DNA from: Octopus vulgaris
Taxonomy: Eukaryota
Reading direction: 5' to 3'
Assembly (NCBI GenBank): GCA_951406725.2
Contig: OX597817.1
Span: forward strand, 137,950,001-138,014,000
DNA length: 64,000 nucleotides
Both the position numbers and the translations under genes were made by a program. The notes under the pieces are model-generated. The model worked only from the letters and a program-made list of their open reading frames with translations, did not search any database and was not told the DNA's origin. Shown here piece after piece: positions 29,355-63,021 of this stretch. The stretch's first letter is position 1. Each line of letters starts with the position of its first letter.

Positions 29355-29419
<65 letters not shown>

Positions 29420-29505
29420 CAAAAAAAAACACAAGAAAAAACAACAAGGCGACAACGTGGTGCATGCAAAGTGTTAAAAGACGCTCAGGGAAGGAAAGAA
29501 AAGTA

Positions 29506-29540
29506 GTTTAACGTTTCGAGCAAAGCTCTTCTTCAGAAAC
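29506..29540 (-). ncRNA. Minimal type-I hammerhead ribozyme
   Basis: GTTT CTGAAGA A GAGC TTT GCTC GAAAC GTT AAAC. Confidence 0.85.
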
Positions 29541-29808
29541 AGGAGGCAGAGGAATGTCCAAGAGAAGAAGAAGACGGACGAAAAAATTCACCAACAATCC
29601 ACATGTAGTTACATTTTGGAATATATATATATATGAAGGTATGTATACGTATATTTATACATCTGTGTGAGTATAGATATATGAACACACAGTCAAACAC
29701 ACACACACAACTAAATACATAGTTACAAAACTAGATGGAAAATTAGTACTCAATACCAAAAGTAGAGTGAAATATTATTTTATTGAAGTCGAAAAAAAGC
29801 TACCTAAT

Positions 29809-29846
29809 CTGTTACTTAGAGTTTCACGAAAGCTTTCATCAAACAG
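29809..29846 (-). ncRNA. Type-I hammerhead ribozyme, partly decayed
   Basis: CTGT TTGATGA AAG CTTT CGT GAAAC TCTAA GTA ACAG; C3U change and a mismatch in stem II. Confidence 0.6.
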
Positions 29847-30044
29847 TTGTGATGCTACAGACTCTTATTACAACCAGTCTTATGAGTCAATGACTCGGGA
29901 AGGACCTTCGATATATGTTTTTAGTATATGGTAATAGACAGATAGATTAAATACAGAGGTAATACTGACACTTAGGTGTGTGTACGTGTGTGTGAATAGA
30001 TAGATATATATAACATATAGATATATATACCATAATATTCAGTA

Positions 30045-30095
<51 letters not shown>

Positions 30096-30186
30096 TTATA
30101 TTTAATGTGTAAGTATGACTGATTTTAATCGTTTTCATTAAAGATTTCTCCTTTGACCATAATATTTGTTTTCGTTTACATTTTAG

Positions 30187-30281
30187 ACAAATTGAATAAA
30201 ATGGAGTCGATTAATGCACCACTGCTTTCCAGTCATCGTTTTATGAAGACATTCACGTCGAAAACAACAGAGAAAGATACT
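30187..30281 (+). CDS. Candidate internal coding exon of an unidentified host gene
   Basis: Acceptor TTTGTTTTCGTTTACATTTTAG, donor GTAAGT, and only one open frame: (D)KLNKMESINAPLLSSHRFMKTFTSKTTEKDT. Confidence 0.5.
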
Positions 30282-30753
30282 GTAAGTGATGTAATAGCTA
30301 TCAGCAGTTAACTGCAGCCGATGTTGATTTTTTTCGCTTTCGAAACGATTTCAATAATCATTTACTGCCTACTGCAAAACGCTGCAGCTTCCTACCTGAC
30401 ACAAGACTTCGAAATGTTATTGCTTCACATTTAACAGCAACGATTGATAAGGAAATAAAAGCGTTAAAATATAAGAAAATAAGCGGTTACCGTTCAGGCA
30501 GATCCGTCTTCATTACAATAGTTTACAAGAAAGCTATTGCACATAGATGCATGTACATACATATACATACATACATACATACATACATACATACATACAT
30601 ACATACATACATACATACATACATACAATCATACATACATACATACATACATATATATATATAGGGAGAGTTTACGAAAAAAACAAAAGACGAAGACAGG
30701 TGGTGTACGAAACAAACAGATGTAATAGTATAACGCTCAGGAATAGAAAAAGT

Positions 30754-30789
30754 CTTTTACGTTTCGAGCCTACGCTCATCTACAGAAAG
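30754..30789 (-). ncRNA. Minimal hammerhead motif (core variant CTGTAGA)
   Basis: CTTT CTGTAGA T GAGC GTAG GCTC GAAAC GTA AAAG. Confidence 0.7.
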
Positions 30790-30879
30790 GGACACAGAAA
30801 AAAACAAGGAGAGAAAAAATGTGTGTAGTGGCTAATGATCTATATACAGGTAAAGACCATTGAATTACACCTAGAAAGT

Positions 30880-31164
30880 TCCCCTCCACGGTTCTAGTCC
30901 AGGCAAAGTTGCTTATGGAAGACCAGCAGGCACCCATGCATACTAGACTCCCCTCTCTTCACTACTGATGTTATCCAAGGGAAAGGGAAAGGCAAAGGGG
31001 CTGATACAGCTTGGTACCAGTGATGCCGCAACTCATTTCTACACCTGAGTGAACTGGAGCAACATGAAATAAAGTGTCTTGCTCAAGAACACGACACACA
31101 GCCCGGTCCGGGAAGCAAACTCACTACCTCATAATTGTGTACCCAGCGCTCTAGCCACTGAGAT

Positions 31165-31165
<1 letters not shown>
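30880..31165 (-). mobile_element. tRNA-derived SINE
   Basis: Minus head CTCAGTGGCTAGAGCGCTGG...GAGTTTGCTTCCCGGACCGGGCTGTG followed by CTTGAGCAAGACACTTTATTTCATGTTGCTCCAGTTCACTCAG. Confidence 0.75.
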
Positions 31166-31235
<70 letters not shown>

Positions 31236-31239
<4 letters not shown>

Positions 31240-31788
31240 GTGTCGGTGAAGTTACTATACAGTGAGGCTGAAAACGCCACTATGGTACGGTTACTGAGGC
31301 AAATGTAAGAAGTGCAACGAAATCAATTCGCTCTGGAAGTTGGGAAATTGATATCAAACCAACCTCACGACACAAAATACTTACTGACCTCAATATGAAA
31401 CCTTACATTCCGCGTCTACTTCACGGACTTTACGGACCTAATCGCAGGTCTTAATTTTGCAAACAGTTTGTAAGTCAAGGAAGTCTGTAAATCAGAGGAA
31501 GCTAAGAAGTATTGGAAACCTTCGGCTGTTTTTTATTGATGCATTTGCTAACCCTGATCCAGACTTGTGTACCAAAGTTTGTCACAAGGTGTTTGGCGTT
31601 GTCGAAGATGCACGGAAGCTAATGGCTTACAATTTGAACATTTCTCATAAATGTAGTAAATGAAATTCATTGTCTATATTGTTAAAATATTTTCTAATGT
31701 AACACGTCTATTTTCTGAAAATACTTTTAGTCTATCCAGGATATTTCTTTATTACAAATAACAGTGTAGTAACTTTACGGACACCCTA
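31236..31788 (+). mobile_element. Internally deleted Tc1/mariner element (MITE-like)
   Basis: Imperfect TIRs TAGAGTGTCGGTGAAGTTACTATACAGT / ACAGTGTAGTAACTTTACGGACACCCTA with TA ends. Confidence 0.75.
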
Positions 31789-31870
31789 TATGCATATACA
31801 TATATCTATATATATTTATATGTGTGTGTCTATGTATACATGTATCTTTATATATTTTACGTGTGTATGT

Positions 31871-31921
<51 letters not shown>

Positions 31922-31986
31922 GAGAGAGAGAGAGAGATACGTAGATAGATACATAGATATATAAGTATATATAAATATATATATAT

Positions 31987-32026
<40 letters not shown>

Positions 32027-32027
32027 G

Positions 32028-32061
<34 letters not shown>

Positions 32062-32151
32062 TACTTTGCTGAGGATTTACTAGTGTAAATTGGTGCAAAT
32101 ATCTATGCTTGTATATATATATATATACATGTTATTATATGCAAACTTATA

Positions 32152-32198
<47 letters not shown>

Positions 32199-32403
32199 CA
32201 GATAGACAGAGAGATAGATAGCTATATCAGGAAATGTATATAAGTCGAAACAATTTATTGGCCTTCTATGTTTTTTTAATGTTTGTGTAATATTATGTTA
32301 TATCATATTCAATGCGTATTATGTAATATCTCGATATAAATACATTATTCGATTGTCAATAGTATCTCTCTGTTTAATGTATATATATATATATGTATAT
32401 ATA

Positions 32404-32452
<49 letters not shown>

Positions 32453-32480
32453 GTACGTACGTATGTATGTACCTCTCTCT

Positions 32481-32519
<39 letters not shown>

Positions 32520-32526
32520 TTTAGAC

Positions 32527-32584
<58 letters not shown>

Positions 32585-32701
32585 GAAGAGGGAGAGAGAG
32601 AGAGGCATAATGTTTTTCTACAAACGCACAAACACGTCTTCCTATATTACGTGCCTTATCAGAAGACACAACAGGTTTATTCATTAAATAGGTGTATATA
32701 C

Positions 32702-32737
<36 letters not shown>

Positions 32738-32883
32738 AGATATGTATATGCTTTCATATATGAACGTAGGCACATATATATGCATATACAAGTATGTACA
32801 CACACTCATGCACACATACAGTAAACAATATGTGCGCGCGTATGAGTGTGTATTTCTCTACATCTCCCAGCATTTTTCCATAT

Positions 32884-32920
<37 letters not shown>

Positions 32921-32926
32921 TATCTA

Positions 32927-33022
<96 letters not shown>

Positions 33023-33503
33023 CTCTCCTCTCTTTCTCTTTCCTCTCATATTATATATATATATTTGTATTTGAGCATATATAGACGTATATATATATAC
33101 ATATACATACATACATATATCATATATATATGTATATATTATATATGTATATGTGTATATATCTATATATATGTCTCTCCTTTCTTTCTTTCTCCTCTCT
33201 CTCTCTCTCTCTCTCGCTCTTGTTCTCTCTCTCTTTTACACACACATTTACATATATATGTACGTGCGTATATATTTTTACTACTTACACACAATAATCA
33301 AACTCCATTTGAAAGATTTTTTTTCTTCGAAAAATAAGCAAATTCTCCGAGATTTTTGCATATATGTATATTCATAACATGTATACGCAGATATATTAAT
33401 ACTCACATATACAACAGATAAACTATTAGCGGCAGAGAATACGGAGGGGGGGGGGGAACACACACGCTCACAAACGCGCGCAACAAACGTGTGTAGGTAG
33501 ATG

Positions 33504-33560
<57 letters not shown>

Positions 33561-33699
33561 GTAGGTAGGTAGGTAGGTAGGTAGGTAGGTAGGTGGGTAG
33601 GTAGGTAGGTAGGTGGGTAGGTAGGGAGATGGATAGGTAGATAGATATTACATACATATATATTATAGATATACGTATATTCTCTTTCTCTCTTTCTCT

Positions 33700-34090
33700 T
33701 TTCTCTTTTACTTGTTTCAGTCATTTGACTGCGGCCATGCTGGAGCACCGCCTTTAATCGAGCAACTCGACCCCGGGACTTATTCTTTGTAAGCCCAGTA
33801 CTTATTCTATCGGTCTCTTTTTTGCCGAACCGCTAAGTGACGGGGACGTAAACACACCAGCATCGGTTGTCAAGCGATGCTAGGGGGTCAAACACAGACA
33901 CACAAACACACACATACATATATATATACATATATACGACAGGCTTCTTTCAGTTTCCGTCTACCAAATCCACTCACAAGGCATTGGTCGGCCCGGGGCT
34001 ATAGCAGAAGACACTTGCCCAAGATGCCACGCAGTGGGACTGAACCCGGAACCATGTGGTTGGTTAGCAAGCTACTTACCACACAGCCAC
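33700..34090 (-). mobile_element. tRNA-derived SINE (family B), near full length
   Basis: Minus head TGGCTGTGTGGTAAG...GGGTTCAGTCCC; highly similar to 35710-36090. Confidence 0.9.
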
Positions 34091-34166
34091 TATATATGTA
34101 TATATATGTATGTGTATATATATATATATACGTGTGTGTGTCTGTATATATATGTGTGTGCGTCTG

Positions 34167-34205
<39 letters not shown>

Positions 34206-34240
34206 CTATATAATATATGTATGTGTATATATATGTGTGC

Positions 34241-34298
<58 letters not shown>

Positions 34299-34648
34299 CC
34301 GTATCATTCTCCCCCCTCTCGTCTTGCCATCCTTTTCACTCACACCCGCTCTCACATACACCCATTTAAATACATCCACATACATAAAATGTGCCTTATA
34401 TCCCTCTTTTTCTGCCGCTTCTGTCCCTTCGTTTTTTCCTGTCTCTCCATCCATTCTATCCTTCTTTCTCTCTCTCTCTCTCTCTTTCTCCCTCTTTCAT
34501 TCTCTCTAACTCTCTCTCTCTCCCATTCATCACACTCCCACTATCACTCTTACACTCCTTTACCCATTTCTTTTCACAAGACGTTCTTTCCATAAATTCA
34601 CCATTCTCAGACCTTCCCCTACATCTCTATATTGACTCCCTAAAATAG

Positions 34649-34694
34649 ATCCTGCAGTTTCCATGGTTACACCGACCAGTCCGTCAGCGTTTAT
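34649..34694 (+). CDS. Candidate 46-nt alternative exon
   Basis: Pyrimidine-rich region with TAG acceptor and GTGAGC donor. Readable as DPAVSMVTPTSPSAF or ILQFPWLHRPVRQRL. Confidence 0.3.
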
Positions 34695-34915
34695 GTGAGC
34701 CCTTATGAAATTTTCATAAACCTCCCACCATCACCCCCATCCTCCCCACCACCACCACCACCACTGCTGCCACTGCCTCCGCTGCAGCTCCGCAACCGCC
34801 ACCACGACCACCACCACACTATGCACTTTCTCAATCTTGAAATGTTTAATATTTGCGATGACGTCATTTTCCGTTAACACTCAGCTCAGAGGGTGCCGAG
34901 AGCTGCTCGCACACA

Positions 34916-34958
<43 letters not shown>

Positions 34959-35216
34959 CTAAAATATTTACACACACACACACCAACATATGCATACATA
35001 TACATCTGCGCATGTATGTGCGCGTGTCTGTGTGTCTGTGTGTCTGTGTGCGTGTGTGTGTGTTTGTGTGTCTGTGTGTCTGTGTGCTACGTATACACAC
35101 ACGCGTACACACGCGCACACACACACGTACACACACATACATACATATATACATATATATACATATATGCTTACAAATTACGAGTAGTACAAACGTATAT
35201 ATATATATATATACAT

Positions 35217-35267
<51 letters not shown>

Positions 35268-35288
35268 ATATATATAGATATATAGATA

Positions 35289-35339
<51 letters not shown>

Positions 35340-35654
35340 ATATACATGCATGAATACATATGCATATAAGTATATAGATATGTTTTGTATGTGTGTATGC
35401 ACGTGTGTGTGTCTATGTGTGCGTGTATGTGCATGTGTGTGTGCGTATGTGTGTGAATGTCTGTGTGTGCACTATCATCTTGGCTACTGTAATATCTAGT
35501 GAGATAAAGAGATTCATGAAAATCCATGGAAAGGACTCACCGCCTGTGTGCGGTGTAGATTACATAACGCCGTATATGCGTTATACACTAGTAAACCTAT
35601 ATAGTAGTATGTAAGAGCTTATTCATACATACATGCGTATGTGTATGTATAATG

Positions 35655-35691
<37 letters not shown>

Positions 35692-35709
35692 GTGTAAATA
35701 TATCTCTTT

Positions 35710-36087
35710 TACTCTTTTACTTGTTTCAGTCATTTGACTGCGGCCATGCTGGAGCACCGCCTTTAATCGAGCAACTCAACCCCGGGACTTATTCTTTTGT
35801 AAGCCCGGTACTTATTCTATCGGTCTCTTTTGCCGAACCGCTAAGTAACGGGGGCATAAACACACCAGCATCAGTTGTCAAGCAATGCTAGGGGGACAAA
35901 CACAGACGCACAAACACACACACGCATATATATATACATATATACGACGGGCTTCTTCCAGTTTCCGTCTATCAAATCCACTCACAAGGCTTTGGTCCGC
36001 CCGAGACTATAGTAGAAGACACTTGCCCAAGGTGCCACGCAGTGGGACTGAACCCGGAACCATGTGGTTAGTAAACAAGCTACTTAC

Positions 36088-36090
<3 letters not shown>
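35710..36090 (-). mobile_element. tRNA-derived SINE (family B)
   Basis: Near-copy of 33700-34090. Confidence 0.9.
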
Positions 36091-36143
<53 letters not shown>

Positions 36144-36231
36144 TAATCCAAACGGGAAAACAAAAAAACAACAACAATGGAACAATTACAGTATTATTAT
36201 TAATAGGCGCTCAGGAAATGGAAGCAGGAAG

Positions 36232-36266
36232 GTATGACGTTTCGAGCGGAGCTCTTCGTCGGAAAC
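36232..36266 (-). ncRNA. Minimal hammerhead motif (core variant CCGACGA)
   Basis: GTTT CCGACGA A GAGC TCC GCTC GAAAC GTC ATAC. Confidence 0.7.
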
Positions 36267-36989
36267 ATAAAGAAGGAAGAGAGAGGAAAGAAAGATCCCA
36301 AAGCGGGCAACAGGGATAGAGAAAAAAACGACTGGTGTTTACGAGTTACACATGGTGAAAGGCGGAAGTTTACGATAACAAGAGCAAAGTAGGTTTTTAA
36401 AGCCAAAAGAGTGGAGACAAGGTTGGTAACGCAACAGATGTGTGTGTATGTGTGAGTGTGTGCGTGTGCGTGTGTGTATGTGTGTGTGTGAGGCGAGATA
36501 AAAAAACAAAAAATATATGTATGTGTTAGTGTGTGCGTCTGTGTGTAGGCGTGTGAGGTAGGGCGAGACAGTGGTAGGCATAGCAGACAATGGTCAGTAG
36601 TAAGAAAAAGAAGGAAGGAGGAAGGGAGGGAGGGGAAGGGGTGGGGGCGTATGTAGCGTGCCAGCGTGTGTTGAGTAGTAGTGTGTGTGTGTGTGTCCAG
36701 TGTCGTGGTAGTATTAATGGCGAGTAGATTGAATGTGTGTAAGAGTAATGTATATATTTAAGCAATGTGTGTATATGTGTGCGCGTGTGTGTAACAAAAA
36801 AGGGGGGGTAAGGAAAAAGGACTCCAGCTGAGGGGAAGATGGAAGAGTGGTCCCGCGGAGACGGGCGTGGGAAAACCCAACGACAAGCGACGGTCCCAGG
36901 AACGAGCGGGAGGTCTCGTCGGGTCCAAGAGCGAGGTGCATGCGGCGCGTATGCGTGCGCGAACCGGCGCAAGCGCGTGTGTGCGCGCG

Positions 36990-58853: not shown

Positions 58854-58995
58854 GTAATAATAATAATAACATCGAAAAATACCTTTGGAATCAAGACACC
58901 TGATGAAGGCTGGAGGGTATATCAGCCGAAACGTTGTGTTAACAACAAACAAGATGAGGACAAATATCCGTCAAATGTAAATAATGTAAATAATG
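58678..58995 (+). mobile_element. tRNA-headed SINE carrying a hammerhead ribozyme, preceded by an inverted copy of its own 3' end
   Basis: Inverted tail 58678-58744, A box TGGCGTAGTGG 58743-58753, B box GAGTTCGATTC 58786-58796, (AAT)n, HHR, then (GTAAATAAT)n tail. Imperfect TSD CAGCAATAAT / CAACAATAAT. Confidence 0.85.
58895..58940 (+). ncRNA. Minimal type-I hammerhead ribozyme (intact)
   Basis: GACAC CTGATGA A GGCTG gagggtatat CAGCC GAAAC GTT GTGTT; predicted cut after 58935. Confidence 0.85.
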
Positions 58996-62917: not shown

Positions 62918-62921
<4 letters not shown>

Positions 62922-63015
62922 TAATCCAAACAAGAAAACAAAAAAAAACACAACAACGCAAGGACGTGGAACAAATAAAGTATTATTGGACGCTCAGGAA
63001 AGAAGGGAAGAAGGA

Positions 63016-63021
<6 letters not shown>
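62918..63021 (-). mobile_element. Short copy of the ACGCTCAGG hammerhead family, within (TA)n
   Basis: TTAATCCAAAC..AAAACAAAAAAAA..ACAACAA..GTATTATT.GGACGCTCAGGAAA, shared with 36140-36235 and 29417-29509. Confidence 0.75.

What the first reader, a model, noticed from the sequence alone, without database searches (positions are those of the whole stretch)
29417..36400. Microsatellite-anchored family of 35-nt mini-hammerheads with covarying stems
Three diverged ~200-bp repeats (29417-29620, 30663-30845, 36140-36400), all minus-sense, each with its 3' end on a TA-rich microsatellite. All keep stem II GAGC/GCTC while loops vary (TTT, GTAG, TCC). Stem I covaries (GTTT/AAAC versus CTTT/AAAG) and the cleavage triplet varies within GUH (GUU, GUA, GUC). 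Stem III is only the palindrome ACGU, so activity would need dimerisation. A conserved CCTGAGCG motif lies shortly 3' of the cut. Structure is conserved over sequence, which suggests selection.
Basis: partly seen in the sequence, partly recalled or inferred. Interest (0 to 1): 0.75.

Follow-up and report, generated by a model that had tools for sequence, protein, structure and literature searches.

The report
Penelope retrotransposon ends with altered hammerheads
The three repeats are tail ends of a known kind of jumping gene (Penelope-like retrotransposons) carrying a known small hammerhead RNA motif; what looks new is that one young, intact lineage with about 19,000 copies has changed a core catalytic letter, and that the conserved motif after the hammerhead is predicted to pair with the start of the next tandem copy, likely marking where copying into DNA begins.

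Summary
The three repeats are 3' ends (pseudo-LTRs) of Neptune-type Penelope-like retrotransposons. Copy 3 is the last 2.15 kb of a 6.15-kb element with an intact RT + GIY-YIG frame elsewhere in the genome. One exact pattern finds 23,890 copies. Minimal dimer-type hammerheads in these elements and their microsatellite bias are published.

Corrections: stem II is invariant, not covarying. Stem I covaries at one pair, once. Copy 3 has a stem I mismatch.

Not found in my searches: (1) A6U is fixed in a lineage of 18,984 exact matches that includes a young, intact family; position 7 varies while the rest of the core stays. (2) The TGAGCGY motif is complementary to RCGCTCA just past the element's end at tandem junctions. 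This 7-bp helix is the only long-range structure RNAalifold predicts, and its variable pair changed on both sides twice independently. (3) Most copies span the predicted cut uncut, and their 5' ends pile up 60-89 nt upstream of the core.

Likely reading: reverse transcription starts inside this helix's loop on mostly uncleaved RNA. Cleavage, the start site and the helix are untested at the bench.

The parts
29417..29620 (-). Copy 1: short pLTR copy of an older family (family A; canonical core CUGAAGA)
   Evidence: (best relatives 84-89% identical)
29506..29540 (-). Minimal hammerhead motif, stem I GUUU/AAAC, predicted cut 3' of 29510
29481..29487 (-). TGAGCGT, 5' arm of the predicted junction helix (partner absent in this terminal copy)
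29357..29416 (.). (TA)n at the 3' end of copy 1, likely the insertion target
30663..30843 (-). Copy 2: short pLTR copy of family B (A6U lineage, core CUGUAGA); 5' end about 58 nt upstream of the core
30754..30789 (-). Minimal hammerhead motif with A6U core, stem I CUUU/AAAG, predicted cut 3' of 30758; the U at position 9.1 is private to this copy (family has A)
30733..30739 (-). TGAGCGT, 5' arm of the predicted junction helix
36136..38258 (-). Copy 3: 5'-truncated 3' 2.15 kb (CA-rich 3' UTR plus pLTR) of the young 6.15-kb family C element
36232..36266 (-). Minimal hammerhead motif with U4C core, stem I GUUU/AUAC (one U-U mismatch), predicted cut 3' of 36236
36207..36213 (-). TGAGCGC, 5' arm of the predicted junction helix (C-G version of the variable pair)
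62919..63021 (-). Fourth member (family C9): tail only, between two (TA)n runs, beginning at the predicted cut site

Best explanation
The three repeats are 5'-truncated 3' ends of Neptune-type Penelope-like retrotransposons, likely copied by the element's own reverse transcriptase from read-through RNA that its minimal hammerhead had mostly not cut, starting at a fixed internal site that is predicted to lie in the loop of a 7-bp helix formed by the TGAGCGY motif and the start of the next tandem unit. Shown: the link to intact RT + GIY-YIG frames, tandem pLTRs, a fixed 3' end on (TA)n-type repeats, the complementary arm at junctions, fixed core variants. Inferred: the endonuclease nicks (TA)n; the UAUA(UAU) stretch between the element's end and the 3' arm is held single-stranded and could pair with the nicked target; a promoter about 85 nt upstream of the core gives transcripts whose first junction yields the many 200-bp copies, while starts at later junctions or on a circle yield long copies. 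The hammerhead is likely weak and dependent on a dimer or on protein, so it tolerates A6U and U4C and cuts only a minority of templates.
For: Copy 3 matches two tandem pLTR-ORF-pLTR loci at 95.6-97.5% over 2.16 kb; 949-aa ORF (from the first Met) with DKG, YIDD, CSRSRCNTC linker and C-terminal GIY-YIG-like domain, up to 4 pLTRs in tandem; 150 of 150 scored endonuclease matches 97-100% identical. A6U family: 150 of 150 scored at 99-100%, CUGUUGA in both pLTRs at 6 of 6 loci, 5 with frames of 1179-1214 aa. Junctions of copy 2's own subfamily are followed by a related ORF (L289, L295). Microsatellite 45-130 nt after the motif in 89 of 96 copies. Helix: RNAalifold on 18 junction copies predicts only stem II and this helix; 98.4% of cells paired, U-A 13 and C-G 5 at the variable pair; a tree built without the arms needs 2 changes, each on both sides, forced by starred branches; an arm-free search returned 30 loci, all junctions: 17 non-C with the arm or a one-base variant, 13 family C or C-like with GCGCCTA. 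5' ends 60-89 nt upstream of the core in 54 of 96 copies, only 3 at 90-149. 28 of 31 copies found without using the hammerhead span the cut. Internal RT start, hammerhead dispensable for insertion in vitro and protein-assisted: shown for a Poseidon element (PMC11167929).
Against: No cleavage, RT start or transcription start was measured; no raw RNA reads were available. The helix rests on one covarying pair and two events; in family C (copy 3's family, young and successful) it carries an A-C mismatch and a G-U pair and the duplex is weaker (-7.3 against -10.8 to -15.4 kcal/mol). Single-sequence folds gave helix probability 0.95-1.0 in 5 of 10 representatives, 0.41-0.53 in 3 and under 0.05 in 2. 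Most non-C junctions first came from a pattern that demanded CGCTCA. In the 31 hammerhead-independent copies the 5' edge is blurrier: 12 at -130 to -90 from the cut, 10 between -90 and -20. In the Poseidon study the RT start is not homologous to the cut DNA, which goes against my priming step. Copy 1's family was tied to junctions (L272, L290) but to no ORF. Neptune versus Nematis was not tested by phylogeny.
Confidence: 0.6

Rival explanations
1. The hammerheads are fully used: cleavage at successive pLTRs releases a unit-length RNA that is ligated into a circle, and RT copies round the circle. The helix then sits at the start site on the circle, and short copies are just early stops.
For: Proposed for these elements in PMC4209133. 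The core stays conserved across lineages 68% identical in protein (20 of 26 hammerhead columns invariant against 15 of 160 outside, partly by selection of the rows). A ligated circle also gives copies that span the cut. 2 of 31 unbiased copies start within 3 nt of the cut and one more.
Against: A circle has no 5' end, so it does not explain the edge about 85 nt upstream of the core. A6 changes lower activity strongly in magnesium for A6C (PMC3088659, PMC7151607). 2 of 31 is not significant (about 0.6 expected by my rough estimate).
Confidence: 0.25
2. TGAGCGY and RCGCTCA are not an RNA helix but two inverted copies of one DNA site, bound by the element's endonuclease or a host transcription factor.
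For: An inverted DNA site gives the same sequence pattern; the tail region is needed for endonuclease recognition in D. virilis Penelope (as cited in PMC11167929); both sites lie downstream of the presumed promoter.
Against: Family C's change keeps a G-U pair, which suits RNA; spacing varies from 79 to 95 nt; both sites changed together twice.
Confidence: 0.15
3. The hammerhead is a dead or dying passenger, and its letters are kept for another reason, such as promoter elements or a protein-binding hairpin; stem II may swap partners with the GAGCG motif as a switch.
For: Non-canonical cores dominate (18,984 A6U matches; most of the first 100 listed of 14,528 A6 matches are U4C). Stem II never covaries and has the same letters as the junction helix. 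Family C has a stem I mismatch.
Against: Position 7, the one free core position, takes all four bases in the A6U lineage while C3, U4, G5, G8, A9 and GAAAC stay; stem I kept pairing through a double change. Folding with and without the junction arm gave no consistent switch in 10 representatives.
Confidence: 0.2
4. An independent non-coding family (retrozyme or SINE-like) of microsatellite-anchored ribozymes.
For: Most copies are about 200 bp with a shared 5' edge.
Against: The same sequences are the pLTRs of coding elements; no tandem arrays of short units were seen in the loci examined.
Confidence: 0.05

Closest known systems
Minimal type I hammerheads of metazoan Penelope-like elements (Cervera and de la Pena 2014, PMC4209133; read parts 1-2 of 4 and passages of one supplement)
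   Same: Location in pLTRs, extra base between A9 and G10.1, G10.1-C11.1 pair, palindromic 15.2-16.2 with no stem III loop, U-rich 5' flank, thousands of mostly single copies, several families per genome.
   Different: Their consensus core is CUGANGAH; here A6U and U4C cores are the majority. Their stems vary between families; here stem II is fixed at 4 bp GAGC/GCUC. No downstream motif or junction helix is mentioned in the parts read; no hit for octopus in the 2 supplement files searched (file 1 not searchable).
Neptune clade of EN+ Penelope-like elements (as described in Craig et al. 2021, PMC8557442; passages read)
   Same: RT with DKG motif, CX2-5CxxC linker, C-terminal GIY-YIG, partial tandems forming pLTRs, microsatellite bias, hammerhead near the 3' end.
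   Different: Clade not confirmed by tree (Nematis shares the linker). Very long microsatellite-like 3' UTR (about 2.9 kb in family C). The paper mentions cephalopods only for Naiad remnants in the passages found.
PAc Poseidon element of Anolis (Frangieh et al. 2024, PMC11167929; passages and second half of main text read)
   Same: Fixed 3' end downstream of the hammerhead, AT-rich targets, uncut RNA as template.
   Different: There RT starts in an AC-rich stem loop inside the ORF with two start sites; here the end lies upstream of the ORF, at a TATA run between two complementary arms, shown by covariation rather than by assay.
Natural hammerhead core variants A6C and U4C (PMC3088659 section 8 and passages; PMC7151607 passages)
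   Same: Changes at positions 4 and 6 occur in nature with reduced but measurable activity.
   Different: A6U has 0 occurrences in the main text of either paper; here it is fixed in a multi-subfamily lineage. Lunse, Weinberg and Breaker (PMC5785218), which reports small variants in these elements, was not held, so A6U may be described there.

Membership tests
EN+ Penelope-like element | Single ORF with RT (DKG, YIDD) and C-terminal GIY-YIG endonuclease | tested here: met
   Pfam RVT_1 E 1.3e-7 for family B' and 0.0018 for C, GIY-YIG E 0.0065 and 0.013, the latter three below curated cut-offs
EN+ Penelope-like element | Partial tandems forming pLTRs | tested here: met
   2-4 pLTRs, 6.15-kb period; 4.5-kb period
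EN+ Penelope-like element | Hammerhead motif in each pLTR | tested here: met
EN+ Penelope-like element | Retained spliceosomal intron | not tested
   No RNA reads available
Neptune clade | CX2-5CxxC linker between RT and endonuclease | tested here: met
   CSRSRCNTC in family C, CSRPRCRTC in family B'; shared with Nematis
Neptune clade | Insertion bias for microsatellites | tested here: met
   89 of 96 copies; no background rate computed in this microsatellite-rich genome
Neptune clade | RT phylogeny groups with reference Neptune elements | not tested
   No reference PLE proteins were fetched
Metazoan minimal hammerhead (min-HHR) | Core CUGANGA ... GAAA, GUH | tested here: inconclusive
   Met by copy 1; copy 2 has A6U and copy 3 U4C, both family-fixed
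Metazoan minimal hammerhead (min-HHR) | Extra base at 9.1, G10.1-C11.1 pair, palindromic minimal helix III | tested here: met
   compared with PMC4209133
Metazoan minimal hammerhead (min-HHR) | Self-cleavage as a dimer | not testable with these tools
   Cofolding two copies did not give the active dimer as minimum-energy structure in 3 of 3; needs an assay
Animal non-LTR retrozyme | Non-coding tandem repeats of short units, each with a hammerhead | tested here: not met
   Tandem units are 4.5-6.2 kb and coding; short copies are single

The most novel reading that the evidence does not exclude
Neptune-type retrotransposons mark their internal reverse-transcription start with a long-range helix that exists only in read-through or circular RNA, holding a UAUA stretch ready to pair with nicked (TA)n. 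Starting at the first junction after the pLTR promoter mass-produces 200-bp solo copies, and an A6U hammerhead, still under selection, throttles cleavage so that most templates stay whole.
Probability: 0.4. Interest if true: 0.68.

Novelty: new variant of a known kind. Interest (0 to 1): 0.48.

Why it matters
How Penelope-like elements choose their internal RT start, and what their hammerheads do, are open questions. This genome offers young intact elements, a covarying 7-bp helix around the insertion end that can be broken and rescued, and three natural cores (canonical, U4C, A6U) in otherwise equivalent elements. A naturally fixed A6U core would extend the known hammerhead core variants and is missed by CUGANGA descriptors, so published counts of these motifs may be low. 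The basic finding, a hammerhead in a Penelope-like pLTR, is not new.

Tried and rejected
Rfam: nothing at gathering score; at E<=10 only microsatellite noise in the 150 rows shown. Searches used a pattern that fixed a rare stem I base, so their counts (712, 223) are mutant subsets and are not used as family sizes. First 5'-end analysis was inflated by microsatellite flanks and redone; there 4 long C9 copies aligned to themselves and sit in the top bin (194-335 nt). In one search copy 1 itself is overcalled at -171 by a microsatellite match. Switch between stem II and the motif: inconsistent in 10 folds. Selection on scattered copies: core divergence 0.028 against 0.050 elsewhere in 29 copies found by upstream DNA; 0.007 against 0.076 in 29 copies found by whole-copy similarity, which is biased; not taken as evidence. 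RNA: no RNA holder listed, contigs only; contigs of 4 other runs show family C's junction unchanged at the arm and no depth step upstream of the core, but depth is no copy number. The same view for the A6U family was not obtained. Metagenome scan with free stem II and fixed TGAGCG: 42 loci, 16 with stem II of 3 bp or more, only 1 with CGCTCA within 260 nt and that in unrelated GC-rich DNA; terminal copies would lack the arm, so this neither supports nor refutes. Literature searches; none returned A6U in a hammerhead or this helix. Lunse et al. was not held. Earlier scan notes: none by sequence or words; CCTGAGCG in no note.
Full report
Observation. The three motifs are in the window as described: cores at minus-strand 29536, 30785 and 36262, stem II GAGC/GCTC, GAAACGT plus T, A or C, and CCTGAGCG 15-21 nt after the triplet. 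None of 30 shuffles gave such a motif. Each ends on a TA-rich microsatellite. Rfam has no match at gathering score. The window lies in a 2.8-Gb animal genome whose repeats look octopus-like to me (recalled; earlier scan notes say the same).

What they are. The exact pattern GAGC N3-6 GCTCGAAACGT N12-35 CCTGAGCG has 11,930 + 11,960 matches genome-wide and its reversed control none. A search with DNA upstream of copy 3 gave pairs of hits 6.15 kb apart. These are pLTR-ORF-pLTR tandems, and window 36115-38258 matches them at 95.6-97.5%. [quoted passage not shown] The 150 scored endonuclease matches were 97-100% identical. This is the layout given for Neptune and Nematis Penelope-like elements, with microsatellite bias noted for Neptune (PMC8557442, passages). 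Minimal hammerheads with an extra base at 9.1 and a palindromic helix III, weak and dimer-dependent in vitro, are published for such pLTRs (PMC4209133, parts 1-2). So the class is known.

Subfamilies and cores. 208 distinct copies fell into a G-C stem I lineage (families A, C9, C) and a C-G lineage (B, B'). CTGTNGA cores (A6U) have 18,984 exact matches, CNGANGA cores 14,528, most of the first 100 listed being CCGACGA. In the A6U lineage position 7 takes all four bases while the other core letters stay. The lineage is not decayed: family B' has 150 of 150 scored endonuclease matches at 99-100% and CUGUUGA in both pLTRs at 6 of 6 fetched loci, 5 with frames of 1179-1214 aa. B' and C proteins are 68% identical over 731 aa. 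Copy 2's own subfamily has junctions followed by a related ORF. Natural U4C and A6C variants are known and slower (PMC3088659 section 8; PMC7151607 passages). A6U had no occurrence in those texts and no relevant hit in two searches, but the most relevant paper (Lunse et al., seen only as a reference and through a review) was not held.

Covariation in the hammerhead. On 18 junction copies, stem I has one pair changed on both sides (C-G 8, G-C 7, G-U 2, unpaired 1) and stem II none. The stem I change follows the split between the two lineages. With stem II left free, 145 of 155 motifs were GAGC/GCTC.

The CCTGAGCG motif. In tandem B' copies the element's end is followed by TATATATTAT GCGCTCA, complementary to TGAGCGC. 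A search requiring CGCTCA 65-95 nt after the motif gave 225 matches; of 25 non-B' loci inspected, 23 were junctions by their downstream sequence, in families A, B, C9 and others, and 7 showed an ORF match downstream in the same orientation. Because that search demanded the arm, I repeated it with a 5'-UTR hallmark instead: 302 matches; all 30 loci delivered were junctions, 17 non-C with the arm or a one-base variant and 13 family C or C-like with GCGCCTA. Of 51 junction copies counted earlier, the 43 non-C ones had C-G 22, U-A 20 and one mismatch at the free pair. RNAalifold on 18 representatives predicts only stem II and this 7-bp helix; 98.4% of its cells pair. A tree built without the arms needs two changes of that pair, each on both sides. 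Against: one pair, two events; family C has an A-C mismatch and a weaker duplex; single-sequence folds support the helix strongly in only 5 of 10.

Where copies begin and end. 89 of 96 copies, taken in order from the start of contig C1 by the 3' half and the motif only, have a microsatellite shortly after the tail. Their 5' ends lie 60-89 nt upstream of the core in 54, 90-149 nt in 3, 150 or more in 21 and under 60 in 18. The edge falls near TCATTC or TCAGTC-like sequence (Inr-like by recall); a promoter inside the pLTR is shown for D. virilis Penelope (PMC2377424, passages). All 4 family C copies were long. In 31 copies found without using the hammerhead (20 in 464 kb around the window, 11 incidental), 28 span the cut, 2 start within 3 nt of it and 1 at +6. 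One of the two is in this window at 63021. That is a hint of cleavage in vivo, not proof.

Mechanism. Most likely the element is transcribed from its pLTR through the junction into the next unit. The helix closes a loop of about 80-95 nt whose 3' side holds the TATA run where insertions end, and RT starts there on a nicked (TA)n target. Starts at the first junction give 200-bp copies; later junctions or a circle give long ones. The hammerhead is weak enough that most templates are whole. This agrees with the Poseidon element, where RT starts internally at a stem loop, hammerhead mutants still insert and cleavage needs protein (PMC11167929), though there the start is not homologous to the target. 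The circle model, a DNA-site reading of the two arms and a dead-passenger reading remain open. No raw RNA reads were available.

Verdict. A real feature of a known class. The fixed A6U core in a young autonomous lineage and the covarying junction helix were not found in nine literature searches and are directly testable. New variant of a known kind; interest 0.48.

Noticed in passing
window 62919-63021 (-): Tail-only copy of family C9 between two (TA)n runs, starting at the predicted hammerhead cut site; two similar cases in L030 and L248.
   Followed up: partly
window 58896-58939 (+): Minimal hammerhead of another family: stem I ACAC/GTGT, core CTGATGAA, 6-bp stem II with 8-nt loop, beside an (AAT)n run; 4 copies in the loci held. 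No CCTGAGCG motif.
   Followed up: no
window 33695-34091 and 35642-36093: Two copies of a dispersed repeat with an internal microsatellite, 90-96% identical to copies on C8; SINE-like by recall. The second lies directly after copy 3's microsatellite.
   Followed up: no
window about 31250-31790: Sequence that looks by eye like a DNA-transposon remnant; not tested.
   Followed up: no
L100 and other family C elements: 3' UTR of about 2.9 kb made largely of degenerate (CA)n interrupted by unique GC-rich blocks, carried with the element; such 'microsatellites' in this genome are partly element-derived.
   Followed up: partly
L115/L116, L257, L399, L406: Head-to-head or tail-to-tail inverted pairs of short pLTR copies, as described for Penelope-like insertions.
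   Followed up: no
L184, L186, L190-L192: In family B' the reading frame runs on past the endonuclease into a low-complexity pyrimidine-rich stretch of variable length before a stop.
   Followed up: no
family C copies (L001, L324, L344, L357, window copy 3): The family with the weakest junction helix and a stem I mismatch showed no short copies (0 of 4 sampled), against 25 of 27 in B and 34 of 38 in C9.
   Followed up: partly
L452, L459, L468, L471, L479, L487: A recurring minimal hammerhead family in metagenome contigs with TGAGCG about 22 nt after the cut, one followed by (ATT)n; possibly an equivalent motif in another animal.
   Followed up: no
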